A stretch of DNA of 64,000 nucleotides from Mustelus asterias (Eukaryota). The stretch lies in the NCBI RefSeq assembly GCF_964213995.1, contig NC_135805.1, positions 45,632,001 through 45,696,000 on the forward strand. Direction: 5' to 3'. A model generated the notes under the pieces. It had not been told where the DNA came from and did not search any database. It saw only the letters and a list, made by a program, of their open reading frames with translations. Each line of letters opens with the position of its first letter. Within the stretch, counting starts at the first letter, position 1. A program made the translations under genes and the position numbers. Shown one piece after another: positions 5,756 to 64,000 of this stretch.

Positions 5756-6348
5756 TCACTGCAAGGATTGCAGATGTCATGTCTCCAGTTCTTTTAGCTA
5801 CATCCACCTTCTGTTTTATGATGCTACCTTTCAAGCTGTTAGCCTCTGAAATCAATTGAAGTGTAATGAACCCATGTGAATTGTATTTACTTCAGGATTA
5901 TTACCAGCTTCTCAAACAGATACCCCAATTTTCTACAATTATGACTTTCTAATGTTAAGAATTGAATATTACTCTAAAACACATGAACCATATATTTGCA
6001 ACAAAATAGCCTTTGAATTTGATCCCCAGGCTGCCTGTGCTTTGTCACTTGGGTAGGTATGTGCAGTCACGCCATCTCGTATTTAATCTTTCAGGAGAGC
6101 TTTCTCTGGCGAGGATGACTCTCTTACTTACCTAGAATCCTGATCTTCAATAATACAGTGCATAGTCCTGCTCATCACAGCTTTCTCGCTGTTATATACT
6201 TTTTTAATCACATGTATTCTGTTGTTGTGACGCGCTCAGTAATAATAACCACCAAATCGAGAATCTTTGGTATTTTTTCAAATTGCATAGACAACCTTTT
6301 TAATTTGATGATGTCTGTAACTTACTCAATTCCATTTACTCTGGATAG

Positions 6349-6451
6349 AATAAGAGCAGCAGTGGAGAAAGTGGAGTTACTGTGGCAACAGGCTCTTGCC
6401 AAGGCTCAGCTTTTGCAGAAGGACCTTCAGTGCAGGGAAAAGGCTCAGCAG
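6349..6451 (+). CDS. Actin-fusion gene, first exon visible in window (IRAAVEKVELLWQQALAKAQLLQKDLQCREKAQQ)
   Basis: tag| acceptor, phase-2 start, cag|gtaaag donor. Amphipathic helix with a spectrin-like W. Confidence 0.75.
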
Positions 6452-8060: not shown

Positions 8061-8189
8061 ATTATTGACTTGATCACTACTGAAGGAATGGGGAAGATTC
8101 ATTCATACAAATTAGAAATTGCTAATAATTTGAGCCAAGCAGAGATTCTAAAATTGGACTATGATGTTGCCATTTACAATCCTGCAATG
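8061..8189 (+). CDS. Actin-fusion gene exon (IIDLITTEG...YNPAM)
   Basis: Poly-T/ccctgtag acceptor, atg|gtgagt donor, phase 0-0, 129 nt. Confidence 0.85.
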
Positions 8190-9632: not shown

Positions 9633-9818
9633 AAGTTGATCGCCGAATCGAGGAGCGTGTTGCAGGTTCTTGATGAAATAACCAAAGAGAAACCTGGAGG
9701 AAAAGAGGAGGATTGTAAAGAGAAATTGAGCAGATTAAAAGATATGTTCCACATAGCTATCGAACTGCCCCGCCAAACTCTAAAAGCAGTTTATGATTTC
9801 TACTACACCTTTGAAAAA
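9633..9818 (+). CDS. Actin-fusion gene exon (KLIAESRS...YYTFEK)
   Basis: ttttgcag acceptor, aaa|gtaggt donor, phase 0-0, 186 nt, helical. Confidence 0.85.
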
Positions 9819-12822: not shown

Positions 12823-13073
12823 GTTGCCGGCTGGTATCATTTGCTGCTGCAAGAAATATTATTTAAGGAGGCGGTATGTGCTCGTGATGTCCACATGTCA
12901 GGGTTTCCTCATGAGGCAGTGATCTGCCTTAGACCAAACTGGCAGCACCAGGTTAATCGCTTCCTAAATAAAGCTCCTCTTCCAACCATGGAAGAATTGG
13001 TCCAGCTCAGGGATTTGGCTGATTACATTCCGGATGCTCTTCAGAGGAGACGGGGAAAATTTCTCTCCCATCA
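12823..13073 (+). CDS. Actin-fusion gene exon (VAGWYHLLLQE...FLSH)
   Basis: ccatctag acceptor, ca|gtaagt donor, phase 0-2. Confidence 0.85.
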
Positions 13074-13185: not shown

Positions 13186-14337
13186 GTGCTTAATTGTCAG
13201 AAAGTTATTGACCTCTCTGGGGCAGGTCTTGCTGGTCGACTTAGAACAAGCAATTCAGTGGCAAGGGATGTATTTAGAGAGACTGCAAAGTGCAATGCTT
13301 CATCGTGCTCATTCATCTGTGGATACCAGGATCAGCAGCAAGGGTGCCGCCAAGGCACGGAAAACTGCCAGTGAAGCAGGCGTTATCCAAGGACAGTTCA
13401 TTGAAAGTAAACCAAAACCAGGAAATGGTTTTGAACAGTGTACAACGTCCACAGAGAAGCGTTCTCAGGGAAGTGAGGAAATCGATCGCAGTAGGGATGA
13501 TCACGATTGTGACCATGTTGACGCGAAGCTGCAATTAAGTACTTTTCGATCCACCTATCAAACAGTCCTTGTTCAACCGGACCAAAAAGGCAGGACGTTG
13601 ACCAAAAAACCCCCATCTTTAAGTTCTTTTGACTCCGGAATCGATGGAGCTGGGAGCTGCAATTTTGAGACTGGAAGTTACGACGTAGCCAATAGGGAAC
13701 CCAAGGTAAAAGGAATCTCGGAATTATCACTTAAAAGTAAAACGACAAAATTAAGTGAAGAGGATAGAGTTAGTGAGAATGACTCTGATGAATGGCCAGG
13801 ACTTGATAAATTTGGATTTGCTGAAGCCCCGTCCGTATCAAGTGAAGTACAGCCCCTTTCAAAATGTAATGCTTTAAACTTTGAGATCAAAGTGAGGCGT
13901 TCAGCTAGCTTGCCTAAGAATCCTTGGATTAGCCTTCCTGTTGAAGATCTTGAAAAGTCCTATATCGTCACAATTACCCCCAAGAAACCTCTATTGGAGA
14001 CTGGCCTCAAACATGCAATAACTGGCAGCAGTAATATGGTGCATGAAAGTGAAGAAAGAAGTGTGGACCTGTTTACTGACACTGCTCCAAGATTGAACAG
14101 CCTGGAGGCAACACCAGGTCAGGTGAAAGGTCCAGAAAAGGAGCAAGTTTTAATTTTTGAGGAAAATGATGTGCAATCTGTTGGAAAAATTAATTGCGTA
14201 CAGTCCTGCATGGACCATAGTTTGAATTCTACGGAACAGTTTGATGAAGATCTGGAAGATAGGACTCCAGAAGTGCTGTGTGATAATTATGAACTGCGTG
14301 GTGCCGAAAAACAACTGGAACGGAATAAGAACGAAAG
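13186..14337 (+). CDS. Actin-fusion gene large exon (CLIVRKLL...RNKNE), mostly low-complexity/disordered
   Basis: ttttcctccattcag acceptor completes the CA|G codon across a 112-nt intron. 1152 nt open; ag|gtatta donor in phase 2. Confidence 0.85.
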
Positions 14338-16505: not shown

Positions 16506-16617
16506 TGAACATGCTTCATTAACCGAATCAAAGCTGGATGACGGGGACATGAAGGAACAGGAAAAGCTTCAGGACGATATTGAAAAGCTTCTGCTGATGA
16601 CAGCCAAAATCTTAGAG
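16506..16617 (+). CDS. Actin-fusion gene exon (EHASLTESK...TAKILE), coiled coil
   Basis: gtgtag acceptor gives a phase-2 start matching the previous donor; gag|gtaaga donor. Confidence 0.8.
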
Positions 16618-18166: not shown

Positions 18167-18307
18167 GAGGAAGAAGATGTGCTCAGACAAGAAAAAGAGC
18201 TGGAGTTTCTTTTACAGCTGGAAGATGGTGAATGCTATGGTGATGCTGGAGAGAACAACCCAGCAGCTGACATGCACAGAGACCAAGGCATTGGGAGCAA
18301 TGAGAAG
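18167..18307 (+). CDS. Actin-fusion gene exon (EEEDVLRQEKELEFLLQ...GSNEK)
   Basis: ttttggatccag acceptor, aag|gtagtc donor, phase 0-0; continues the coiled coil from the previous exon. Confidence 0.75.
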
Positions 18308-19793: not shown

Positions 19794-21662
19794 GTCATGA
19801 TGTCCCTGAGTGAGCTTTCAGAAGCCGGAGTGATTGGATTGGAGGACTACGAGTGGCCTGAAATGGAACAGCACGATTGTCATTGCGGTTTCACCCAATC
19901 ACGTTTAGCTTGTGATATGGCCAATATGCAACAGGACAGAAGCTTCAATCCTTACAGTGGCTTTTTCACAACTGAATGTAAAGCTACTGTTTCAACTCCA
20001 GGGTCATACTGGGGATTACACAATGACCCCAGATTACTGCAAGAATTGAAAGAACTAAATCAAATTGAGGACAGAATTCTGGAAGAGAACTTGAAGCTAA
20101 GAGAGTTGTGTTCCTCTGAGGACGAGCGGAATGCTCAAGTGCAAAACCCAGGCGAGTCAAACCCAAACAAAGATAGAATAAAGTTCTTGACTGAGCTGGA
20201 GAGAGAAAGGAAAGAGGTTGAGAAAATGGAGCAAAGTCTAGCTAGAGAAGAACAAATGAAATACCAGAATTTAAAGAGACTGCCACAAGTATCTTCAAAG
20301 GCGGGATGTGGTAATCAAAAGAAAAGAACTGTGAAACCATCTGCACATGTTCGAAGCTCTTATTCAAAGTCTGGTTCAAGAGCTGAAGTAAAAACCCAAT
20401 GTGGATTAGCAGATGTGAATTTAAAGTCCAGTAAACCCAGTTACTCTGCAAATGGTTTTGATTCAGACTCCAGTCAGGACCAATTTTGTGTCAAGCATAC
20501 TTCAGGCAAAACTCCTCCACCTGTAAAGGGAGTTCGTATCTCAAAAAAAAAGACCGCCAAAAAAATACATTCCAAAACAAATGAGCTGCCAGACCCAGTT
20601 CTTGGTGCGGTTATTAATCATGCTGTTCCTATGCAAGAAGAAAGTGACACAGCAGGTACAAAAGACGACCAGACATTTAATACTCATCCACGCGATGAAA
20701 TTCTTGTGCAGGTTATTCATTCAAATCAGCAGGAAACCATTGAAAATAATGAAAGTTATACAGCTGGCTGTAAAAACCAAAGTGACATAACTGTGCAAAC
20801 TAAAGAAAAGCCAACACCAGTGCTACGGACTGGCATACCTGTGAAAGTGGAAAAGTTTCCGGCTCCTGCGCGTTCTCTGCGCTCCCCTGGTGAATCCCTT
20901 GGAGACGCTGTGGTGATGGAGAATGGGAAGGAAGTCCAGCTGAGAGTCCCAGTGCCCAAGCCCAGAAAAATCATTAACCTGTGCCAAACCACAAGTTGCC
21001 CAAATCAGTGTTCAGAAAATTCCGGTGCTTCACTGAAACCTGGTGAACATTGGGAATTTTCAGAGTTTGTGGGAAACTGCGCTGTTTCAAAGGAGTCCAG
21101 AATGCCAGAGCCTGTGACCACTAGTGCGGCACCCAAACCAGATCCACAGATGGAGCGCCAAGATCAATCTGAAGAGATGAAAAAGGACCATGTGGGCGTA
21201 AATTCTTCCAACTTGATTGACAGCTCAACAAACATGCATATCGGCCCAGTAAACTGTAAGAAAGATGATCCTGTCCCTGAAGCAAGCGCTTTTGTAAACA
21301 CTGAGAAAATGCGTTTTGGGGAAAAAGACTCCAAATTAGTAATAAAGTTAGATGTATACGGTGAAACGAAATATGATGCACAACACATTCCCTTATTTAA
21401 TGAAGCAATACAGAAAACCAGCGCAAGTAACATAAGGAGCTTAGGATCAGGAAAGGATTGCAAACCTGAGATGTTGCAATTTAATGAATGCAGAAGCGAT
21501 GAGACTCAGATGGATTCTTTGCACATAATTGATGATACAAGCCACACACATGATTGTCCAAATCGAGACTTACATCCTGTATTTGAAGATGGTCTTGCAA
21601 AGTTATCTGTGGCACATAAACCACCAATCAATGCACACATTTTTCAAGTATCCGTTATGAAG
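19794..21662 (+). CDS. Actin-fusion gene 1869-nt exon (two coiled-coil segments followed by a long disordered linker)
   Basis: ttttgttccag acceptor, aag|gtaacc donor, phase 0-0; 623 open codons with no TE similarity noticed. Confidence 0.9.
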
Positions 21663-22649
21663 GTAACCAAAGATGATTTACTTTTTATTAGGATAGATAT
21701 CTATCCATTGTTGATGTTGATGTAATTTTTATGATCTCAAATATATGAGTAAAGTCTCCGAGGAGCTTGCATTTTGCTCTTGATTGGCTCTTTATTGGAA
21801 CTTAAAGGCAACATTAATGTGAAGATTAATGAAGAATGAGTTGATTTAATTTCAAAAGGTTGATTGGCCATAGTAAATTGCCCCATAGCGTAAGGGAGAA
21901 TAGCAGAATAAATACAAGGGATTAAGGGGATAGGGCCTGGGTGGGATTGTGGGCCAAATGGCCTCCTTCTGAATGTAGGGATTCTATGATTCGATGAGGT
22001 ACATTGTGCCCCACCTCCGTTACCAGTTATTTCCTTCAGAGTCATGAATCTCTCTGTGTCAGATTTTCTTCTCAATTATCTGCATCACCCCTGAGTTAAC
22101 TTATCTATCTTTTGTTTTTTTTCTTTCCTTCTGCACCTGTGGAGATAAAAAGCCCAATAGCGGGATTATCCAGCCCTTCCCGCTGGCAGGATCTTCCGGT
22201 CCAGCCAAAGTTCACCCCTGCCACAGGTTCCCCAGTGGTGAGACAGGCGATCCACGCAAAAAGCTGTAGACTGCGGTGGGCCCGCTTATTGTATTTAAAA
22301 TATATTGAAATTGACATTCAAATCATTTCCACGTCTTCCCACCGATTTCCAGCGTGGAGCAGGCACCACTGCTGGTAATCCGGCGCTGGGAGAATCTATC
22401 TCGGCGGGAACGCATGCGTGAATCCCACGCATCGCCTGCCGCAAGATTCTCCCGGCCCACTGCGCTAAAAAATTAGCAGCGGGATGGGAGAATCACCCCC
22501 AGGTGTTTGATCTTGCCCTCCTTTCGCTTCCTCTTAAACTCATGTAAGTGTCTCCTCATAGGGGAGAGTAGGAGGCTCGAAACGGACAAACTATTTCCGA
22601 TCTTTGCCCATTAGCACTTGGTCAGAATAAACTAGCTAAAATCTGAGGT

Positions 22650-22880
22650 CACGTACCAACGGACTCAAGAACAGCTTCTTCCCTGCTGCCATCAGACTTT
22701 TGAGTGGACCTACCTCACATTAAGTTGATCTTTCTCTACACCCTAGCTATGACTGTAACACTACATTCTGCACTCTCTCGTTTCCTTCTCTATGAACGGT
22801 ATGCTTTATCTGTATAGCGCGCAAGAAACAATACTTTTCACTGTATGCTAATACATGTGACAATAATAAATCAAATCAAA
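22650..22880 (+). mobile_element. Rex1/Babar-like LINE 3' end
   Basis: Near-identical to 50770-50995; tail gtgacaataataaatcaaatc. Confidence 0.75.
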
Positions 22881-23107
22881 AAGTTGGTAAACATCGTATC
22901 AATATTTTATGAAACGGATAACATTTTCCTGTATAATAGAAAGAAAGCTTGTTCAGACAAACGGTCATCCAGACTCAAAACGTTGGCTCTATTCTCTCCT
23001 CATAGATGCTGTCAGACCTGCTGAGATTTTCCAGCATTTTCTGGTTTTGTTTGTGAAAGCCTGTTATTGTCAGACTGCTGAATTTGATAACTATTTGACA
23101 AGACAAT

Positions 23108-23590
23108 CACTTGTAGAAGCAGGAGTAGGCCATTTGGCCCTTCGAGCCTGCTCCACCATTCATTTTGATCATGGCTGGTCATCAAATTTAATATCCTGAT
23201 CTCCCCTTCCCCCCATATCCCTTGATCCCTTTAGCCCCAAGAGCTATATCTACTTTCTTCTTGAAATCAGACAATGTTTTGGCCTCAACTATATTCTATG
23301 GTATTGAATTCCACACATTCACCTCCCTCTGGGTGAAGAAATTTCTCCTCATCTCAGTTCTAAAAGATTTACCCCTTACCCTCAAACTATGACCCCTTGT
23401 TCTGGGCTCCTCCACATTGGGAACATTCATTCTGAATCTACTCTGTCTAACCCTGTTAGAATTTTAGAAGTTTCAATGAGATCCCCTCTCACTCTCCCGA
23501 ATTCCAGTGAATATAATCCTAACCGACTTAGTCTCTCCTCATATGACAGACCTGCCATCCCAGGAATCAGCCTGGTAAACCTTCGCTGTA
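23108..23590 (-). mobile_element. CR1 LINE 3' fragment
   Basis: Antisense of the CR1 ORF2 C-terminus and 3' UTR (ctcgaagggccaaatggcctactcctgct). Confidence 0.75.
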
Positions 23591-24430
23591 CTTATTGTCT
23601 TATGACATTCCCAACAAAGTAATGAATCTGGCTTGCATATGTTGTAGGATACTACACTGTACACACTTAATTCTGAGTGTGCCACATTGGATCATTTAGT
23701 ATGCAGGATGATAGCGGTGAATACACTTTTAGATGAAATATAAATCTACTCTTCAAAATATACAAAATATTAATGGCAGCTTACAGACATCAATCCCCCA
23801 CCCTGGACCCTTGGCGATCATGTGAAGTCCTTAACTCTCATTCTGCACTGAGGGGATTCTGAGGTAGTTATGGAGGTGCCCTTCATTCCTGTGCCACGTT
23901 CTTCCAAGTGACCCAGCCTGCTCTGTGGACAGAGTTCTTCTTACTCTTTCCCACCTGTGTCTAATTTTTGTCCACCTAGTTCATCCTTGATCCACAATTT
24001 GAAATTGCTGCATGCCGATTCTGCTTTGAGAGCACCAAAGAGACCAGTTTTTGGAGCAATGTTTTTATCTTTACCGGAGATTCCTGCTCCCCTTTCCTCC
24101 TGCTCCCCCACGCCCCAAAATATAATTCCTGGATCTCTCTATGTCACTGGTTGTAAATTTTTGTCCAACCCAAGCGCACATGAAAGCGATGGGACTTGCC
24201 ATTTCGGGACCTCTTTATTTTGTTCCTTTTTGTTTTGCATTAATATTAGTTATTTTATCCCACACAATATTCATGTTCTTGATATATTTTACTACATTTT
24301 GTATCACGAAATGAATACATTTTTAAATGTCCGTCACTGCATCGTAGGCCAATTTAAGGCTCAGAATGTCATCAGTAAGAGTGGGAAATGAGTACAGGCT
24401 GTTAACACATGTATTTTCTGTCACTGGCAG

Positions 24431-24553
24431 GTTTGTGATTATAACATACCAATTGTATTAGACACAGGCTCTGGACTGATGAAAGCTGGCTTTGCAAATC
24501 AGGACCTACCAACCACCATATTTCCAACAGTAATTGGGCGACCCAAATATGAG
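24431..24553 (+). CDS. Actin domain exon 1 (VCDYNIPIVLDTGSGLMKAGFANQDLPTTIFPTVIGRPKYE), actin residues 1-41
   Basis: ctggcag acceptor in phase 0, gag|gtaaat donor. Phosphate-1 loop DxGSG..KAGFA. Not shown in the ORF track. Confidence 0.95.
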
Positions 24554-31351: not shown

Positions 31352-31480
31352 AGTATTTGCAGTAGGAGGCATCAGCCGGATGTTTACATTGGCCATGATG
31401 CACAGCACATGCGAGGAGTTCTTTCCTTGCACTACCCACTGGAACATGGAATTGTGACCAACTGGGACGAAATAGAAAAG
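31352..31480 (+). CDS. Actin domain exon 2 ([43 protein letters not shown]), residues 42-84
   Basis: tttgtctccag acceptor, aag|gtatgt donor; 43 codons colinear with actin; His73 retained. Confidence 0.95.
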
Positions 31481-32908: not shown

Positions 32909-33104
32909 ATCTGGCATCATACATTTTATCATCAGCTCCGCATTGACCCACAGGAGCACCCAATCCTCCTGACGGAGGCAGCCATGAACCCACACCAGAA
33001 CCGAGAGCGAATGGTTGAGATCATGTTTGAAGTCTTTAATGTGCCTTTTTCTTATGTGGCAATGCAAGCTGTTTTAGCACTTTATTCTTCGGGGAGAACA
33101 ACAG
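32909..33104 (+). CDS. Actin domain exon 3 (IWHHTFY...SGRTTG), residues 85-150
   Basis: tatttcag acceptor, g|gtatgt donor in phase 1; Q137 retained. Confidence 0.95.
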
Positions 33105-39643: not shown

Positions 39644-39768
39644 GTATAATCTTGGACTCTGGGGATGGAGTCACGCACACTGTACCAGTCTATGAAGGGT
39701 ACAGCATCCCTCATGCTATACAACGCTTAAATTTGGCTGGTCGAGATCTCACAGACTATCTAAGAAAG
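39644..39768 (+). CDS. Actin domain exon 4 ([41 protein letters not shown]), residues 150-191
   Basis: Poly-T...gacag acceptor in phase 1, aag|gtgtgt donor; phosphate-2 loop DSGDGVTH. Not shown in the ORF track. Confidence 0.95.
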
Positions 39769-41300: not shown

Positions 41301-41488
41301 CTGTTGAAAGAAAGGGGTTATTCATTTAACACTTCCGCAGAGCGGGAAATTGTTCGAGATATCAAAGAGAAGTACTGTTATGTTGCCGAAGACTATGAAG
41401 CAGAACTGGGCAGCTTGGAAAATGGTGAAGAGCTGAACTACACGTTGCCAGATGGACAAATAATTACAATAGGCAACGAGAAGTTCAG
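41301..41488 (+). CDS. Actin domain exon 5 (LLKERGYSF...GNEKF), about residues 192-256
   Basis: ttttacag acceptor, ag|gtaacg donor in phase 2; [12 protein letters not shown] and YTLPDGQ motifs. Confidence 0.95.
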
Positions 41489-44829: not shown

Positions 44830-44963
44830 AGCTCCAGAGATCTTATTTAGACCAGAGGTGATTGGAAGAGACCATTATGGAATTCATGAGAGTCTTCTCC
44901 GCGCCATTATTCTCTGTGATGTAGACCTGAGAAAAGTATTTGCTGCAAACATTATTCTTTCCG
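44830..44963 (+). CDS. Actin domain exon 6 (APEILFRP...NIILS), about residues 256-301
   Basis: tctccccttgtccag acceptor in phase 2, g|gtatgt donor in phase 1. Confidence 0.95.
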
Positions 44964-46139: not shown

Positions 46140-46460
46140 TCTATCACATTCTTGAATCCACTATTGATTCTGCATCCACTGCACTCTGGGGCAGTGAGTT
46201 CAATAGATTCACAACCCTCTGAGAAGTAGCTTCTCCTTATCTCTGTCTTGAACCTCCCCTCTCTTACTCTACAAATATGACCTCTTGTCCTAGACTGTTC
46301 TAGAAGGGGGAGCATTTGGTTAACATTTACTTTATCAATCCCGTTGAGTATTTTATATACCTCAGTCAAATCCCCCCTCATTCTTCTGTACTCCAGTGAG
46401 TACAAGCCCAAGCTACTCAACCACTCCTCATACGTCAGCCCCTTGAAACCTGGAGTCAAT
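46140..46460 (-). mobile_element. Older CR1 fragment, antisense
   Basis: GLYSLEYRRMRGDLTEVYKIL. Confidence 0.75.
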
Positions 46461-46479
46461 CTCTCTCAAACCTACTGCA

Positions 46480-49400
46480 AGCTAATAAATTTAGTATCTG
46501 GAAAAAATAGTTTACATTTGGGGGAAGGGGATCAAAATGAGGTGACTGAGAGTGAGGAAGGTAGCTCGCAAACAGAGAAGGGTTATAGGCGGTGCAAGAG
46601 GGCGGATGGACAGGGAATAGAGAAGGGGAGAGCTCAGACCAAAGGATTGAGATGTGTTTACTTTAATGCCAGGAGCATAGTGAATAAAGGGGATGAGCTC
46701 AGAGCGTGGATCGATGCCTGGAAGTATGATGTGGTGGCCATTACGGAGACTTGGATGTCTCAGGGACAGGACTGGATACTCCAGGTGCCGGGATTCAGAT
46801 GTTTCAGGAAGGACAGGAAGGGAGGCAAGAGAGGGGGTGGAGTGGCACTGCTGATCAGGGATAGTGTCACAGCTGTAGAGAAGGTGTATGCTGTGGAGGG
46901 ATTGTCCACCGAGTCTCTGTGGGTGGAAGTTCGGAGTGGGAAGGGGCCGGTCACTTTGCTGGGAGTTTTCTATAGGCCGCCCAATAGTAACAGGGAAGTG
47001 GAGGAGCAGATAGGGAAACAGATCCTGGAGAGATGCAATAATAGCAGAGTTGTTGTGATGGGAGACTTTCATTTCCCAAACATAGATTGGAATATCCCTA
47101 GGGTAAGGGGATTGGATGGGGAAGAGTTCGTTAGGTATGTTCAGGAGGATTTCCTGACACAGCATGTGGACAAGCCTACAAGAGGAGAGGCTGTACTTGA
47201 TCTGATACTGACCAATGAACCTGGACAGGTGTCAGATCTCTCAGTGGGAGAGCATCTTGGGGATAGCGATCATAACTCAATCTCCTTTATGCTTGCATTG
47301 GAAAAAGAGAGGATCAGGCAAGCTAGGAAAGTGTTTATATGGAGTAAGGGGAAATATGAAGACATTAGACAGCAAATTAGAGGAGTAAATTGGAAGGAGG
47401 TATTCTCGGGGAAATGTACTGAAGAGAGGTGGCAGTTTTTCAAGGAATGTCTGTCTAGAGTTCTACAGGACAACGTTCCGAGCAGAGAGGGAGGTGTTGG
47501 TCGGCTAAAGGAACCGTGGTGCATGAAAGCTGTGCGGGACCTAGTCGAGAAGAAAAGGAAAGCGTACAAAAGGCTCAGAGAGCTTGGCGAAGATAGGGAT
47601 TTAGAAGAGTATACGGCTTGTAGGAAGGGACTAAAGAAGGAAATTAGGAGAGCCAGAAGGGGTCACGAGAAGGCCCTGGCAGGTAGGATTAAGGAGAACC
47701 CTAAGGCGTTCTATAAATATGTGAAGAGTAAAAGGATGAGACGTGACGGAATAGGACCTATAAAAGGTGAAGGCAGGAAAGTCTGTACGGAACCAGTAGA
47801 AATGGCAGAGGTGCTCAATGAGTATTTTGCCTCGGCTTTCACAGAGGAGAAGGACCTGGGTGGATGTACTGCGGGCGTGCGGTGGACTGAAAGGATTGAG
47901 TATGTGGACTTTAAGAAAGAGGTTGTGCTGGAATCTTTGAATGGCATCAAGATAGATAAGTCGCCGGGTCCGGATGGGATGTACCCCAGGTTACTGTGGG
48001 AGGCGAGGGAAGAGATTGCAGAGCCTCTGGCGATGATCTTTGCGTCGTCGATGGAGTCGGGAGAGGTGCCGGAGGATTGGAGGATTGCAGATGTGGTTCC
48101 TATTTTCAAGAAGGGGAATAGGGATAGCCCAGGTAATTACCGACCGCTGAGTCTAACCTCAGTGGTTGGTAAACTGATGGAGAAGATCCTGAGGGACAGG
48201 ATATATGAGCATTTAGAGGGGTTTACTATGCTCAAGAATACTCAGCATGGCTTTGTCAAGGGCAGATCGTGCCTTACGAGCCTGGTGGAGTTCTTCGAAA
48301 ATGTGACTAAACACATTGATGAAGGGAAGGCAGTAGATGTGGTTTATATGGATTTTAGCAAAGCGTTCGATAAGGTCCCCCATGCAAGGCTTCTAGAAAA
48401 AGTGAGAGGGCATGGGATCCAAGGGGCTGCTGCCCAGTGGATCCAGAACTGGCTTGCCCAAAGGAGGCAGAGAGTGGGTATAGATGGGTCTTTTTCTAAA
48501 TGGAGGTCGGTCACCAGTGGTGTGCCCCAGGGATCTGTTCTGGGACCCTTGCTGTTTGTCATTTTCATAAATGACCTGGATGAGGAAGCGGAGGGATGGG
48601 TTGGTAAGTTTGCCGATGACACGAAGGTTGGTGGGGTTGTGGATAGTCTGGAGGGATGTCAGAAGTTACAGAGGGACATAGATAGGATGCAAGGCTGGCA
48701 GATGGACTTCAACCCAGATAAATGCGTCGTGGTCCATTTTGGTAGGACAAATGGGATGAAGGATTACAATATAAAGGGAAAGACTCTTAGTACTGTAGAG
48801 GATCAGAAGGACCTTGGGGTCCGGGTCCACAGGACTCTGATATCGGCCCCGCAGGTGGAGGAGGTGGTTAAGAAGGCGTATGGTGTGCTGACCTTTATCA
48901 ATCGAGGGATTGAGTTTAGGAGTCCGGGGATAATGATGCAGCTATATAAGACCCTCGTCAGACCCCACTTGGAGTACTGTGCTCAGTTCTGGTCGCCTCA
49001 CTATAGGAAGGATATGGAAAAGATTGAAAGGGTGCAGAGGAGATTTACAAGGATGTTGCCTGGATTGAGTGGCATGCCTTATGAGGATAGGCTGAGGGAG
49101 CTCGGTCTTTTCTCCTCGGAGAGACGAAGGATGAGAGGAGACCTAATAGAGGTGTATAAGATGTTGAGAGGCATAGATTGGGTGGACTCTCAGAGGCTTT
49201 TTCCCAGGGTGGAAATGTCTGCTACGAGAGGACACAGATTTAAGGTGCTGGGGGGTAGGTACAGGGGAGATGTTAGGGGTAAGTTTTTCACACAGAGGGT
49301 GGTGGGCGAGTGGATTCGGCTGCCGTCAGGGGTGGTGGGGCGAACTCAATGGGGTCTTTTAAGAGACTCCTGGATGAGTACATGGAGCTTAATAGGATGG

Positions 49401-49498
49401 AGGGTTATAGGTAGGTCTAGAAGGTAGGGATGTGTTCGGCACAACTTGTGGGCCGAAGGGCCTGTTTGTGCTGTAGTTTTTCTATGTTTCTATGTTTC
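46480..49498 (+). mobile_element. Young CR1 LINE with almost intact ORF2 (APE endonuclease plus RT)
   Basis: YFNARS, ITETW, GDF, SDH endonuclease motifs; RT PQGSVLGP and KFADD; CR1 tail; small deletion near 48695 and frameshift near 49340. Confidence 0.95.
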
Positions 49499-51560: not shown

Positions 51561-51793
51561 GTGGAAACACAATGTTGACTGGATTATCACTGAGAGTACA
51601 AAAAGAAATCTCCTCCATGATGCCTCTGGACCTGTCAAAATATGTACACATCACCAGCCCAGCAAATCGGGACTTCACAGTGTGGAGTGGAGGTGCAGCC
51701 CTGGCAAATTCATCTGCCATTGAGTGTGCCTGGATCAGCCGAGAAGAATATTATGAGTTTGGTCCAAAGATTGTTCATAGGAAGTGCTTTTAA
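51561..51793 (+). CDS. Actin domain terminal exon (GNTMLTGL...WISREEYYEFGPKIVHRKCF*)
   Basis: tttcttaaag acceptor in phase 1; canonical actin C-terminus HRKCF then TAA. Confidence 0.95.
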
Positions 51794-56006: not shown

Positions 56007-59000
56007 TAGAACAAAGAACAAAGAACAATACAGCACAGGAACAGGCCCTTCGGCCCTCCAAGCCCGCGCCGCTCCCCGGTCCAGGATTGAATCCTGAATC
56101 CAGGATCCCCACCCATTTTCCAGCCTATCTACATACCAATATCCTATCCACCGAGCTGTCCCCCACAGCTACGATGCTTTGTTCATTACAACCTATTAAC
56201 TCACCCCCACCCCCCCATTCCAGACCATGTGATCTCCAGGGAGAGGCGAAAACCCAGAGTGAATAACCCCAGGGCCAATATGGGGAAACAAAATCTGGGA
56301 AATTCCTCTCCGACCCCCTGAGGCGATCGAAACGAGTCCAGGAGATCACAATGGCCCTGATCGGAAAATGCTTCCCAACCCTAGTCATTTCCACTTCCAC
56401 GAGAAACAAGGAACAATTAGCCCGCGCCGCTCCCTGGTCCAAACTAGACCACTCTTTTGTATCCCTCCATTCCCACTCCGTTCATATAGCTGTCTAGATA
56501 AGTCTTAAACGTTCCCAGTGTGTCCGCCTCCACCACCTTGCCCGGCAACACATTCCAGGCCCCCACGACCCTCTGTGTGAAATATGTCCTTCTGATATCT
56601 GTGTTAAACCTCCCCCCCTTCACCTTGTACCGATGACCCCTCGTGAACGTCACCACCGACCCGGGGAAAAGCTTCCCACCGTTCACCCTATCTATGCCTT
56701 TCATAATTTTATACACCTCTATTAAGTCTCCCCTCACCCTCCGTCTTTCCAAGGAGAACAACCCCAGTTTCCCCAATCTCTCCTCATAACCAAGCCCCTC
56801 CATACCAGGCAACATCCTGGTAAACCTCCTCTGTACTCTCTCCAAAGCCTCCACGTCCTTCTGGTAGTGTGGCGACCAGAACTGGACGCAGTATTCCAAA
56901 TGCGGCCGAACCAACGTTCTATACATCTGCAACATCAGACCCCAACTTTTATACTCTATGCCCCGTCCTATAAAGGCAAGCATGCCATATGCCTTCTTCA
57001 CCACCTTCTCCACCTGTGACGTCACCTTCAAAGATCTGTGGACTTGCACACCCAGGTCCCTCTGCATCTCTACACCCTTTATGGTTCTTCCATTTATCGT
57101 GTAGCTCCTCCTTACATTATTCCCACCAAAATGCATCACTTCGCATTTATCAGGATTGAACTCCATCTGCCATTTCCTTGCCCAAATTTCCAGCCTATCT
57201 ATATCCTTCTGTAGCCTCTGACAATGTTCCTCACTATCTGCAAGTCCTGCCAGTTTTGTGTCGTCCGCAAACTTACTGATCACCCCAGTTACTCCTTCTT
57301 CCAGATCATTTATATAAATCACAAACAGCAGAGGTCCCAATACAGAGCCCTGCGGTACACCACTAGTCACAGGCCTCCAGCCGGAAAAAGACCCTTCCAC
57401 TACCACCCTCTGTCTTCTATGACCAAGCCAGTTCTCCACCCATCTAGCCACCTCCCCCTTTATCCCATGGGATCCAACCTTTTTCACTAGCCTACCATGA
57501 GGGACTTTGTCAAACGCTTTACTAAAGTCCATATAGACAACATCCACGGCCCTTCCTTCGTCAACCATTTTGGTCACTTCTTCAAAAAACACCACCAGGT
57601 TAGTGAGGCATGACCTCCCTCTCACAAAACCATGTTGACTATCGTTAATGAGTTTATTCCTTTCTAAATGCGCATACATCCTATCTTTAAGAATCTTCTC
57701 CAACAACTTCCCCACCACGGACGTCAAGCTCACCGGCCTATAATTACCCGGGTTATCCTTCCTACCCTTCTTAAATAACGGGACCACATTGGCTCTCCTC
57801 CAATCCTCTGGGACCTCACCTGTGTCCAGTGACGAGACAAAGATTTGCGTCAGAGGCCCAACGATTTCACCTCTCGTCTCCCTGAGCAGCCTTGGATAGA
57901 TTCCATCAGGCCCTGGGGATTTGTCAGTCTTTATATTCTCTAACAAACCTAACACTTCCTCCTTTGTAATGGAGATTTTCTCCAACGGTTCAACACTCCC
58001 CTCCGAGACACTTCCAGTCAACACATCCCTCTCCTTTGTGAATACTGACGCAAAGTATTCATTTAGGATCTCCCCTACCTCTTTGGGCTCCAAGCATAAG
58101 TCCCCACTTTTGTCCCTGAGAGGTCCGATTTTTTCCCTAACAACCCTTTTGTTCCTAACGTATGAATAAAATGCCTTGGGATTCTCCTTAATCCTGTCTG
58201 CCAAGAACATTTCGTGACCCCTTTTTGCTCTTCTAATTCCCCGTTTGAGTATTTTCCTACTTTCATTGTACTCCTCCAGAGCTCCCTCCGTTTTTAGCTG
58301 ATTGGACCTAGCATACGCCTCTCTTTTCCTTTTGACCAGTCCCTCAATTTCCCTGGTTATCCACGGTTCCCTAATCCTACCCTTCCTATCCTTCTTTTTT
58401 ACAGGCACATGCTTGTCCTGTAGCCCTAACAACCGTTCCTTAAAAGACTGCCACATACCAGATGTGGATTTACCCTCAAACAGCCTCTCCCAATCAAGAG
58501 CTGCCAATTTCTGCCTTATCCCAATAAAGTTAGCCTTCCCCCAATCCAACACCTTACCCTTGGGACACCACTCATCCTTTTCCATCACTATCCTAAAGCT
58601 AACAGAATTGTGGTCACTATTTGCCACATGTTCCCCTACCAAAACTTTGAAGACCTGACCGGGCTCATTCCCCAGTACCAGGTCCAGTATAGCCCCCTCT
58701 CTAGTTGGGCTGTCCACATATTGTTCCAACGAACCCTCCTGTACACATTTTACAAATTCCTCCCCATCCAGAGTCCCTGCCCTCAGCGATTTCCAGTCTA
58801 TACCAGGGAAATTGAAGTCTCCCACTACAACAACCCTATATTTCCTGCACCTATCCAGTATCTCCTGACATATCCATTCTTCCACTTCCCTTGGGCTGTT
58901 GGGGGGCCTGTAGTACACCCCCAACATAGTGACTGCGCCTTTCCTGTTTCTAAGCTCCACCCAGAGTGACTCGCTACACGACTCCTCCGAATTGTCCTCC

Positions 59001-59016
59001 CTCTGCACCGCTGTAA
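56007..59016 (-). mobile_element. Young CR1 LINE, truncated within the endonuclease, with an extended 3' UTR
   Basis: 862-aa open ORF 56444-59032; (gaacaaa)n tail near 56007-56030. Confidence 0.95.
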
Positions 59017-59285
59017 GATGATAAAGAAGCAAAAGATGAATGAGTATTAGGTCGAAGAAATGCAGAGAAAATCACAGAGAGAGAGAGCTAAACTCAGTCA
59101 AATTTTTAAATTGCAGACAACTGTCTGCAAATCTCACAGCTCATTCCTGTGTCTAAGTGGGACATTTCTCTGACCTATTCCAGTTGCGAGGTCTGGCGGT
59201 GGGATGGAAGGGGAAGTAGCCATCCCACCAAGTTGTTGATAAAACTTGGTGCTCTTTGATGTGGGAGCACAAGTTCAGTTTGAAC

Positions 59286-62243: not shown

Positions 62244-62340
62244 GTAGTGAAAAGTTTGATTAAGCAGACTGGTATCAACAATTAATGTGTGTCCTCCATT
62301 ACCTTAAACTTCTCTTGTGCTTTTGTTTGAAAGCTGCAGG

Positions 62341-62448
62341 ATGGCTTATAGCCAGGCTGAATGTGTGATAAAGAATATCATTCGGGAAATAGCCCAGGAG
62401 TGCGCTGATAGGGGACACTCCATCTCTGAGACACTTGTAGCATTCATG
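62341..62448 (+). CDS. CFAP206: Cilia- and flagella-associated protein 206, first coding exon
   Basis: MAYSQAECVIKNIIREIAQECADRGHSISETLVAFM matches my recall of the human CFAP206 N-terminus (MPPTQAESVIRSIIREIGQECAAHGEIVSETLIAFM). Acceptor just before the ATG; atg|gtgagt donor. Confidence 0.9.
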
Positions 62449-64000
62449 GTGAGTGCAGTGAGATCGGTTGATTCATTCGGGTGTGTTTTTTTGGACATAT
62501 TTTGATTTAGCCTTCATTGTAACAAGGTTTGTATATTGTTTGCGACAACAGCAATGAAAGTGAAGGCAGCCAGCAGCCCTCCAGGCTGTCTGCGTATAGC
62601 TTTTTAGCATTAGTCCAATTTAAAAAAAACTTAGCTCTGGAGCTCCCAACACAGTTTTGTGCCAGCAGCTGGCTCATAATGCAAGGTTGTTTGGGATAAG
62701 AATAAATAAAACTTACTTATCCAAAGAGAATATAATCCTTCTGTTTGCATACCTGGCGCAGCGTCACGCTGTAGCAGTGCAGTCAGCGGCTGCTAAAGCC
62801 TGGCATTGCATTGGGAGTGGGTGCTCCCATTCCCGGCAAAGCTCACAATCTGCCTCAGTGTGACCGCTGAGGGAAAAGGAGGCTAACAGCTTCGGTGCAT
62901 GTAGTGCTCCTTGGGCACCCTCACCAACGATCCGTTGATTTAGAACAAGCATTAAAGAGCAGATAAAACATCTGCTAAGATCACATAGCCCTCCTGCCCT
63001 CTACCACAGCCAGAAAAGGGCACAGCTGGCAATGTCTCGCCATGTAATCCTGCTGTATGAGGAGGAACACCCAGGGCTGGGTGAATTATGTACGTTGTCC
63101 TATGTGCAGAATGACTACTGCCCTAAACTTTTATTGATATAAAATGATATCAGAGGTCACGGGAGTATGACAATTAGCCACAATGCACCAAAGTGTTTGT
63201 CAAAGGCTGTGTTTGCTGCCAGTGTCCTGCATGTTCTGTTGCTCCCCCTACATCACAGCGAGCAATGGAGCTGGCTGCGGCCAGGAGCAAAAGTAGTGCC
63301 ACAGATGTGTTTTCTCCCCTTGATCCGAGTTGTTTTATTGGACACATCCGTTACTTTCACCCTACATCTTAACTTTGTATTAAGGCAACATTCACATTCA
63401 TCATTCCCTATCCATGTCAATTCATTTTTTTATAGGCACGTAAGTAAACGGTAATGCTTTGCTCAGGGACTGCATCCCCAAAAACGCATATATATATATA
63501 TATGTATCTCGGAAGCATAAAAATCAATGTACACAATCATTCTATATATTTATAGTTCACAGAGATTTATTATTTTCAATGTGCGCTACAACATAAACAC
63601 ATTACTATATCTGTTTGATACTGCAAACCACACATACCGAAAAGGTCGTGGAAGCTGAGTCTTTGAATATTTTAAGGCAGAGATGGTTAGATTCTTGGTA
63701 AGCAAGGGGGTGAAAGGTTGCTGGGGGTTGATGGGATGCAGATTTACACTTGGTCTTGTTGAGTAGTGGAGCAGGCTTGAGGAGTCAAATAGCCTAATCC
63801 TGCTGTTTGTTTGTACCTATGTTTTAAGTGTAACTGCATATCTTGGACTGTCTCGCCTGGTCTGCTCTGCCATACATAGGTTCTAGTTGACGTTTCACAA
63901 CTGTATTTCAGCACATGAATATCGGTTTCTTTAACCTCAGTTTATCATCTTTCAGTAGACTTGCTCTCATTGAGGAGTCTTTCACGCCTAAGACTAATCT

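What the first reader, a model, noticed from the sequence alone, without database searches (positions are those of the whole stretch)
24389..24553. The actin module has no start codon: the splice acceptor sits exactly at actin residue 1 (VCD instead of MCD)
Seen: the exon begins GTT TGT GAT (V-C-D), like the M-C-D start of class II actins. Reading upstream in frame hits TGA at 24389-24391 with no ATG in between. The first internal Met is residue 17, after the phosphate-1 loop. Known: vertebrate actin genes have an intron in the 5' UTR just before the ATG. Inference: an upstream gene's donor captured that acceptor and the Met was lost, making the fusion obligatory and removing the acidic acetylated N-terminus used by myosin.
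Basis: partly seen in the sequence, partly recalled or inferred. Interest (0 to 1): 0.7.

Follow-up and report, generated by a model that had tools for sequence, protein, structure and literature searches.

The report
Ancient SEC14–spectrin–actin fusion gene junction
This shark exon has no start codon because it is the internal first actin exon of a roughly 2,000-residue fusion protein shared from amphioxus to fishes and amphibians, an uncharacterised actin-related family rather than a recently captured muscle actin.

Summary
The literal observation holds: in-frame TGA at 24389, no ATG, exon starts V-C-D, first Met is residue 17. The exon belongs to an intact 15-exon gene, orthologous to zebrafish si:ch211-241j12.3: CRAL-TRIO, spectrin-like helices, long linker, complete actin fold. 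The same architecture occurs in sharks, rays, bony fishes, amphibians and amphioxus, and the fused actin domains form one clade (96/96). The fusion therefore predates vertebrates; origin from a vertebrate muscle actin is rejected (AU p=0.00034).

VCD≈MCD is off-register: V matches β-actin residue 1, not class II. Codon 1 is Met in 29 of 39 teleosts and 0 of 22 others; even Met-bearing forms lack the acidic N-terminus.

"Obligatory" is not general: actin-only gene models exist. Two mackerel sharks have models that start inside the upstream exon, one set acidic, hinting at secondary fission.

Best reading: a membrane-tethered, ATP-binding actin-related module and a poor myosin track (function inferred). 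It is database-annotated; my ten paper searches found only one table row. The scan had noted an unrelated Naegleria PH–actin fusion, not this gene. No reads were laid.

The parts
6347..6451 (+). First exon of the gene inside the window (helical, spectrin-like region); 5' boundary approximate. The CRAL-TRIO exons are absent from the window and presumably lie before its start.
   Evidence: tblastn of shark orthologues; gene model; residues 1-291 of catshark P0211 have no credible match in the window
8061..8189 (+). Exon, helical N-terminal module
   Evidence: GT-AG
9633..9818 (+). Exon, helical N-terminal module
12823..13073 (+). Exon, helical N-terminal module
13186..14337 (+). Large exon: end of helical module and start of low-complexity region
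16506..16617 (+). Exon
18167..18307 (+). Exon
19794..21662 (+). 1,869-nt linker exon ending ATG AAG|GT (Met-Lys), phase-0 donor to the actin module. It holds GT dinucleotides in phase 1 after 20655 and 21123, at the places matching the N-termini of mackerel-shark actin-only models.
21657..21659 (+). In-frame ATG two codons before the junction (MK|V); start of the 377-aa epaulette-shark model
21663..24430 (+). Junction intron (2,768 nt); repeats at 21852-22004, 22638-22873 and 23114-23591 (LINE-like 3' end); no CArG box; the only two ATG-bearing phase-0 mini-exon candidates lie in the last repeat
24389..24391 (+). In-frame TGA in the intron, 13 codons before the acceptor
24431..24553 (+). Actin exon 1 (residues 1-41, V-C-D..., Met17 at 24479); intron at 41/42
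   Evidence: Pfam Actin E 4.9e-9
31352..31480 (+). Actin exon 2 (D-loop to K84); intron at 84/85
32909..33104 (+). Actin exon 3; intron in codon 150
39644..39768 (+). Actin exon 4 (phosphate-2 loop); intron at 191/192
41301..41488 (+). Actin exon 5; intron in codon 256
44830..44963 (+). Actin exon 6; intron in codon 301
51561..51793 (+). Actin exon 7, ending IVHRKCF and stop

Best explanation
24431 is the internal splice acceptor that joins a long upstream ORF to the actin-fold domain of one ancient chordate gene (zebrafish name si:ch211-241j12.3). SHOWN: an intact reading frame, and the order CRAL-TRIO (SEC14-like), kalirin/SESTD1-like helical repeats, about 1,000 fast-evolving residues, then a complete 375-residue actin fold. 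The fusion arose once, before amphioxus and vertebrates split. INFERRED: since then the first codon of the exon has been an internal hydrophobic residue (V in early-branching jawed vertebrates, L in amphioxus, M gained later in teleosts), so no ATG was needed. Residues 1-7 were remodelled into an ordered, non-acidic segment (x-x-D-Y/F-x-x-P). INFERRED MECHANISM: the SEC14-like domain binds membrane lipid, the helical rod and disordered linker act as a leash, and the ATP-binding actin fold works as a tethered Arp-like subunit that caps, seeds or anchors filament ends or holds actin-binding proteins, rather than as a myosin track. The full fusion is the main product, but some lineages appear to make actin-only forms from downstream starts.
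For: Gene model of 15 exons, 1,690 codons without internal stop, all 14 introns GT-AG. 84 hits of 672-2,000 aa to the 13187-14335 exon, nearly all with Pfam Actin; rays, skates and a salamander added; amphioxus, tailed frog and caecilian named. CRAL_TRIO_2 plus Actin in amphioxus P0291 and catshark P0211. N-module profile hits kalirin at E about 1e-28; atlas neighbours are SEC14/spectrin proteins at scores up to 0.85, a lead only. IQ-TREE: 11 fused domains form one clade, 96/96, amphioxus basal; gnathostome fused plus vertebrate muscle actins without amphioxus rejected, p=0.00034. Two unnamed Logan ORFs cover the whole fusion on contigs barely longer than the ORF (1,768 aa on 7,099 nt; 1,677 aa on 5,417 nt), as expected of spliced read-through mRNA. 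In 61 family proteins D11, K18, G74, Q137, G156, G182, K213, E214, G301 and G302 are invariant, as are Y169, P243-D244-G245, D288, R290, L346 and F375; D24 is Q in 57, E93 is Q in 59, M269 is never kept (the roles of these residues are recalled). The sturgeon orthologue folds as actin (344 of 442 residues at pLDDT 90 or more, linker disordered, residues 61-70 mean 87; Foldseek TM 0.94-0.97 to solved actins). Identity to catshark is 93% in the actin part against 66% in the linker.
Against: No expression data for this species. All isoforms are computed gene models. The test of all fused domains (with amphioxus) grouped with vertebrate muscle actins was not rejected (p=0.12), so an origin from an early chordate muscle-type actin stays open. 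The gene shares three intron positions (41/42, 84/85, 150) with human smooth-muscle actins, and 84/85 is listed only for them. The intron position in amphioxus was not seen. Lipid binding, ATP binding and filament contact are untested; Y306 and K336 of the adenine pocket are replaced (L in 56 of 61, D in 60 of 61). The window's own CRAL-TRIO exons were not seen.
Confidence: 0.72

Rival explanations
1. One reading: the upstream gene captured the 5'-UTR-intron acceptor of an intron-containing actin gene in an early chordate. The acceptor lay at or slid to the ATG, and ATG became GTG (Val). Compatible with the best explanation about present function.
For: The phase-0 acceptor lies exactly at the class I residue-1 register (Asp11, 375 aa). 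Codon 1 is M, V, I, L or A in 59 of 61 proteins, mostly one base from ATG. The module kept spliceosomal introns, three at known actin positions, so it came from a DNA-level duplicate, not a retrocopy. Actin 5'-UTR introns just before the ATG are recalled; two searches for a citation found none.
Against: 0 of 22 non-teleosts, including amphioxus, have Met there. Residues 1-7 do not align to actin. As recalled, the acceptor in vertebrate actin genes lies several bases before the ATG, not at it. Val is common at this gene's phase-0 exon starts (3 of 9). Four smooth-muscle introns are missing and three positions are not in the published table.
Confidence: 0.35
2. One reading: a vertebrate class II actin (MCD) was captured, its Met lost, and the fusion is obligatory.
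For: The exon reads V-C-D, with Cys2 in 10 of 12 cartilaginous fishes; introns 41/42, 84/85 and 150 match smooth-muscle actin; no credible intronic ATG exon in this window.
Against: Amphioxus orthologue; AU p=0.00034; class II register off by one or two residues; Cys absent in 49 of 49 non-chondrichthyans; actin-only models in ten species.
Confidence: 0.07
3. Two products by design: the locus also makes a stand-alone actin-related protein from a downstream start (the ATG at 21657 or other Mets in the linker exon; the exon's own Met in teleosts). In mackerel sharks this form has replaced the fusion.
For: Actin-only models: great white shark 379 aa, basking shark X1-X5, epaulette shark 377 aa starting at MK, lake trout 375 aa starting at the exon Met. 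Mackerel-shark N-termini score best inside the linker exon in 11 of 12 comparisons and join at residue 8-9 of the actin exon. The window has phase-1 GTs at both matching places. No full-length mackerel-shark fusion was among the hits. MK is kept in all 9 non-mackerel, non-batoid shark rows aligned, in coelacanth and in caecilian.
Against: Gene models can be truncated by incomplete RNA evidence or assembly gaps. The 354-359-aa models start at Met17 and lack the phosphate-1 loop, so they look like annotation fallbacks. Position -2 is F, I, V, L, R or K in other lineages, so the Met may be an ordinary residue. I could not see mackerel-shark genomic DNA, and an N-terminal half under 672 aa was outside the searched lengths.
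Confidence: 0.4
4. The fusion is an annotation artefact: two neighbouring genes joined by gene predictors, the actin gene having its own unseen first exon.
For: Split models exist (N-half only: P0035, P0053, P0082, P0392, P0437; actin only: above).
Against: The frame across the junction is kept from amphioxus to teleosts; donor position conserved in skate and cyprinid genomic ORFs; two uninterrupted full-length ORFs on short Logan contigs.
Confidence: 0.04

Closest known systems
si:ch211-241j12.3 family (zebrafish ENSDARG00000043963; RefSeq 'uncharacterized protein' LOC119967165 and others)
   Same: This gene is its orthologue: 92-93% identity in the actin part to catshark models, same exon order.
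   Different: Nothing material. The family has database names only; searches by name and locus ids found one paper, where it is a table row (PMC6555922, passage seen).
POTE-actin chimeras (POTEE/F/I/J) of primates
   Same: Actin module fused in frame at the C-terminus of an unrelated protein, with no free actin N-terminus (PMC7073761, passages).
   Different: POTE-actin arose from a beta-actin retrogene before the Old World monkey-ape split. Here the module has six introns, is 57% identical to beta-type actin (212 of 369), follows a SEC14/spectrin module and predates vertebrates.
Filactin of Dictyostelium
   Same: [quoted passage not shown]
   Different: Amoebozoan; the paper classes its actin domain as conventional actin. 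Its filamin-type N-terminal repeats are recalled. No sign of common origin was tested.
SEC14-spectrin proteins (kalirin, Trio, SESTD1, MCF2L2)
   Same: The N-terminal 430 residues match kalirin's CRAL-TRIO and spectrin region (E about 1e-28).
   Different: No RhoGEF, PH or SH3 domain found; an actin fold takes the C-terminal place.
Conventional class I and class II actins
   Same: Full fold, nucleotide cleft, C-terminal RKCF, introns at 41/42, 84/85 and 150.
   Different: About 57-60% identity; no acidic N-terminus; altered D-loop and hydrophobic plug; separate clade; introns at 191/192, 256 and 301.
Arp1 and ARP-T (ACTRT) groups
   Same: Divergent actin fold with a proline just before the first strand (P-I/V-V-L/I-D).
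   Different: They branch apart from the fused clade in the tree. The two Arp1-like rows were unnamed and labelled from recalled motifs.

Membership tests
si:ch211-241j12.3 family | Sequence orthology of the non-actin part | tested here: met
   71% over the whole query to catshark, E 5e-160
si:ch211-241j12.3 family | C-terminal complete actin domain in the family clade | tested here: met
   375 aa, nested among sharks
si:ch211-241j12.3 family | N-terminal CRAL-TRIO domain | tested here: inconclusive
   Present in orthologues; its exons are not in the window and no genome is held
Class II (muscle-type) actin | Met-Cys followed by 3-4 acidic residues (bioRxiv 10.1101/2024.03.17.585386, passages) | tested here: not met
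   V-C-D-Y-N; one acidic residue; at most 2 acidic residues at positions 2-5 in 61 of 61 proteins
Class II (muscle-type) actin | Phosphate-1 Asp at residue 12-13 from the Met | tested here: not met
   Asp11 from V; 60 of 61 MC starts have 12 or 13
Vertebrate muscle actins | Descent from within the vertebrate muscle actin clade | tested here: not met
   AU p=0.00034 without amphioxus; sister grouping with amphioxus included not rejected, p=0.12
Vertebrate muscle actins | Intron set 41/42, (84/85, 121/122), 150, 204, 268, 328/329 (PMC2753633 supplement 2) | tested here: not met
   3 of 7 shared, 4 absent, 3 other positions
Conventional actin | Intact nucleotide-binding and catalytic residues | tested here: met
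   D11, K18, Q137, G156 in 61 of 61; D154 and H161 in 58; exceptions Y306, K336, T303
Conventional actin | Polymerises into filaments and activates myosin | not testable with these tools
   Sequence only: many long-pitch contact residues kept, D-loop, plug and acidic patches changed (roles recalled)
POTE-type retrogene fusion | Intronless actin module from a retrocopy | tested here: not met
   Seven exons, six introns
Kalirin/Trio RhoGEFs | DH-PH RhoGEF domain | tested here: not met
   No RhoGEF or PH hit in the 15 family proteins scanned

The most novel reading that the evidence does not exclude
An unstudied chordate class of actin-related protein, a SEC14-spectrin-tethered actin more than 500 million years old, kept in amphioxus, fishes and amphibians and apparently lost in amniotes. 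In mackerel sharks it has split again: a shifted acceptor inside this exon joins phase-1 donors within the old linker exon, freeing a stand-alone divergent actin with a newly recruited Met and, in basking shark isoform X1, a new acidic N-terminus (M-K-E-E-S-D).
Probability: 0.35. Interest if true: 0.72.

Novelty: new variant of a known kind. Interest (0 to 1): 0.48.

Why it matters
The missing ATG is the ordinary consequence of being an internal exon. What matters is the gene. Known actin fusions are either young retrogene chimeras (POTE) or amoebal (filactin). This one is an intron-bearing, strongly conserved actin-fold fusion spanning amphioxus to amphibians, with an intact ATP cleft, and my searches found no functional study of it. 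It has a named zebrafish orthologue, so knock-out, localisation and polymerisation tests are straightforward. If the mackerel-shark models are real, the locus also records fusion followed by fission and re-evolution of an actin-like N-terminus, a natural test of what the acidic end is for.

Tried and rejected
No whole genome is held for this window, so the CRAL-TRIO exons and synteny could not be examined.

Sequencing runs: 21 listed, no RNA holder listed. No reads or contigs were laid, so expression, the 21662-24431 junction and alternative first exons are untested in this species.

Intronic first exon: 10 of 120 GT sites in 21663-24430 scored 5 or more on a matrix from the gene's own 14 donors; 2 of these 10 have an in-frame ATG (23300, 23574), both inside the LINE-like remnant, judged cryptic. 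No CArG box, one TATA-like match. This scan cannot exclude a non-coding first exon.

First fold with a 16-row alignment failed (pLDDT 35); the 105-row alignment worked. The fold is of the sturgeon orthologue P0197, not of the window's protein.

The 'shorter' search was crowded by tandem-actin models and scored only 8,000 candidates, so stand-alone forms are undercounted.

Long actin-ending proteins from an acoel (P0431), Sphaeroforma (P0317) and an unnamed record (P0345) have N-parts unlike this family and were rejected as members.

The count of proteins ending in an actin C-terminus used a crude pattern that missed true members and is not used. Gene-model scripts had off-by-one exon ends, fixed; the internal donor coordinates were also off by one and were corrected by hand.

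Paper searches with no description of the family. No citable source for the 5'-UTR intron position. PMC7870945 (passages) did not bear on the gene. Subscription papers such as Kusakabe 1997 and 1999 and Lee 2006 were seen only as reference-list entries. No complex prediction was run, because no binding is claimed.

Full report
OBSERVATION. TGA at 24389-24391 is in frame with the exon at 24431, the 13 codons between hold no ATG, the exon starts GTT TGT GAT after CAG, and the first Met is residue 17. The exon is Pfam Actin positions 3-39 (E 4.9e-9).

THE GENE. Using tblastn of orthologues I built a 15-exon model from about 6347 to 51793. All 14 introns are GT-AG and the frame is open for 1,690 codons. 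The last seven exons encode exactly 375 residues from V to HRKCF, 57% identical (212 of 369 aligned) to a coelacanth beta-type actin. The window's protein groups with sharks. The first roughly 290 residues of the catshark orthologue, including the CRAL-TRIO domain, are not in the window and presumably lie upstream.

THE FAMILY. The exon at 13187-14335 retrieved 84 proteins of 672-2,000 aa from sharks and bony fishes, several named si:ch211-241j12.3, nearly all with a Pfam Actin domain. The N-terminal region added rays, skates and a salamander, then only kalirin at weak E-values. An exhaustive search with the actin domain returned long unnamed proteins, 13 of which also carry the N-terminal module. 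Naming some of them gave amphioxus, tailed frog, caecilian, reedfish and teleosts; a coelacanth model came. Amphioxus P0291 has CRAL_TRIO_2 at 41-185 and Actin at 1442-1811 and aligns to catshark over the first 530 residues (29%, E 2e-64). No amniote, lamprey or tunicate member was named, but I named only part of the hits, so loss in amniotes is inferred. A profile of the N-module hits kalirin's SEC14 and spectrin region at E about 1e-28.

AGE AND ORIGIN. In a 30-row IQ-TREE analysis (rows chosen by hand from the 134), the 11 fused domains form one clade (96/96) with amphioxus basal, outside the conventional actins and apart from ARP-T and two Arp1-like rows. Holding the gnathostome fused domains with vertebrate muscle actins, without amphioxus, is rejected (p-AU 0.00034). 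Holding all fused domains with them is not rejected (p-AU 0.12). So the fusion predates vertebrates, while the donor actin type is unresolved; branches are long. Introns in beta-actin numbering are 41/42, 84/85, 150, 191/192, 256 and 301. Human smooth-muscle actins have 41/42, 84/85, 121/122, 150, 204, 268 and 328/329 (PMC2753633, supplement 2 read): three shared, four absent, three not in that table. The module therefore came from an intron-bearing duplicate, unlike the POTE retrogene fusion (PMC7073761, passages). The shared 84/85 intron is the best point in favour of a muscle-type link.

THE JUNCTION ACROSS ORTHOLOGUES. I tabulated 61 proteins: the window plus 60 chosen by hand from the fetched family members, about one per species, with an intact actin start. 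The residue ten before the phosphate-1 Asp is M in 29, V 17, I 6, A 4, L 3, P 2. All 29 Mets are in teleosts (29 of 39). The 22 non-teleosts have V 16, A 3, L 2, P 1. Genomic ORFs that run into the intron show the donor at the same codon in a skate (IK|VTK, like the window's MK|VTK) and in cyprinids (RQ|VQ against spliced RQ|MSD), so the teleost Met is the exon's first codon. By parsimony Val is ancestral in jawed vertebrates and Met was gained later. Cys2 is in 10 of 12 cartilaginous fishes and 0 of 49 others. Asp3 is kept in 43 and Tyr/Phe4 in 59. Class II actins are Met-Cys plus 3-4 acidic residues (bioRxiv 10.1101/2024.03.17.585386, passages); here positions 2-5 hold 0-1 acidic residues in 57 of 61 proteins and 2 in the rest, with or without Met. 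V matches residue 1 only in the class I register: 60 of 61 MC-type starts place the Asp at 12 or 13, the window at 11. Against alpha-actin it is the upstream exon's Met (21657) that falls on residue 1. VCD resembling MCD is thus most likely coincidence, although the acceptor does sit at the domain boundary and an old ATG-to-GTG change cannot be excluded.

IS THE FUSION OBLIGATORY? Read-through is supported by the conserved frame and by two unnamed Logan ORFs that span the full fusion on contigs of 7,099 and 5,417 nt (P0078, P0083), which I take to be spliced RNA (inference). In this window no credible ATG mini-exon was found: 2 of 10 well-scoring intronic donors have an in-frame ATG, both in a LINE-like remnant. 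But actin-only models were listed for ten species. Six species have forms starting at Met17 (two bamboo sharks, a skate, coelacanth, two salmon); these lack the phosphate-1 loop and look like fallbacks. Epaulette shark starts at the MK of the upstream exon (377 aa) and lake trout at the exon Met (375 aa). Great white and basking shark models begin MESKMQEPMSA-I, MQEPMSA-I or MKEESDATA-V and continue at VLDTGSG. These N-termini score best inside the linker exon in 11 of 12 comparisons with four sharks, and the window has phase-1 GT dinucleotides at both matching places (after 20655 and 21123). The simplest account is a new phase-1 acceptor about 19-22 nt into the actin exon in mackerel sharks. 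No full-length mackerel-shark fusion appeared. This is inference from protein models; I could not see their DNA.

HOW IT PROBABLY WORKS. The actin part is the best conserved region: 93% to catshark, 66% to bowfin, 53% to amphioxus, against 66%, 22% and 18% for the linker. Phosphate-loop and catalytic residues are nearly invariant, while Y306 and K336 are replaced. Residues recalled as long-pitch filament contacts (R62, Y143, G168-Y169, 243-245, D286, D288, R290, L346, F375) are kept in 57-61 of 61. The D-loop, the hydrophobic plug (M269 to R/K, C272 to Y) and acidic myosin-facing residues (D24, E93, the N-terminus) are changed. A shorter, less acidic N-terminus is expected to bind myosin more weakly (PMC11796330, passages). 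The sturgeon orthologue folds as actin with high confidence; the linker is disordered and the first exon residues are ordered. I therefore favour a membrane-tethered, ATP-binding Arp-like subunit that caps, seeds or anchors filament ends. Domain order, fold and residue conservation are shown; lipid binding, ATP binding and filament contact are inferred.

COMPARISON AND NOVELTY. It works like POTE-actin and filactin (PMC2441452, passages) in being an actin with its N-terminus buried in a fusion, but it belongs to neither, nor to class II actins. The gene is in the databases. Searches by name and locus ids found one paper, a table row in PMC6555922, and topic searches found no description; subscription journals were not searched. 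The scan's earlier notes held a Naegleria PH-actin fusion (e1-631938), which led me to filactin, and nothing on this gene.

VERDICT. The missing start codon is real but expected for an internal exon; the class II and vertebrate-capture reading fails; 'obligatory' is unproven here and probably false for the family. The interest lies in the old, unstudied actin-fusion family and the possible re-fission in mackerel sharks. Interest 0.48; new variant of a known kind.

Noticed in passing
window 62308-62502 (+): ORF beginning MAYSQAECVIKNII looks like the first coding exon of CFAP206 (recalled), about 10.5 kb after the actin stop; no Pfam hit for the 54-aa piece.
   Followed up: partly
window 46281-49424 (+) and 56447-59071 (-): Long open LINE ORF2 frames (1,048 and 875 aa) with endonuclease and reverse-transcriptase domains; the first lies in the last actin intron. 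Probably young CR1-like copies (class recalled).
   Followed up: partly
window 31352-31480: The shark D-loop has lost both methionines (C at 44 in 11 of 61, position 47 never Met), the recalled MICAL oxidation sites. His73 is kept in sharks and amphioxus but is Asn in 39 of 61, so SETD3 methylation would be impossible in most teleost members.
   Followed up: no
window 31480/31481: Intron at 84/85, listed only for smooth-muscle actins in PMC2753633 Fig. S2, occurs in this pre-vertebrate lineage: either older than assumed or gained twice at an AAG|AT site.
   Followed up: no
P0431 (Convolutriloba), P0317 (Sphaeroforma), P0345 (unnamed): Other long proteins ending in a divergent actin domain, with N-parts unrelated to this family: further independent actin fusions.
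   Followed up: partly
P0082 (Pseudorasbora parva): Named 'guanine nucleotide exchange factor DBS isoform X2' but is the N-terminal half of this family (E 1e-220 to the N-module profile, no RhoGEF domain).
   Followed up: partly
P0233, P0235, P0236 (rays and skates): Models carry one extra residue at the junction (K-Q or K-L before the first actin-exon residue), suggesting tandem NAGNAG acceptors.
   Followed up: no
P0237 (Pleurodeles waltl): The salamander model has only about 80 residues of actin domain (Pfam 1451-1529); truncated model or decaying gene.
   Followed up: no
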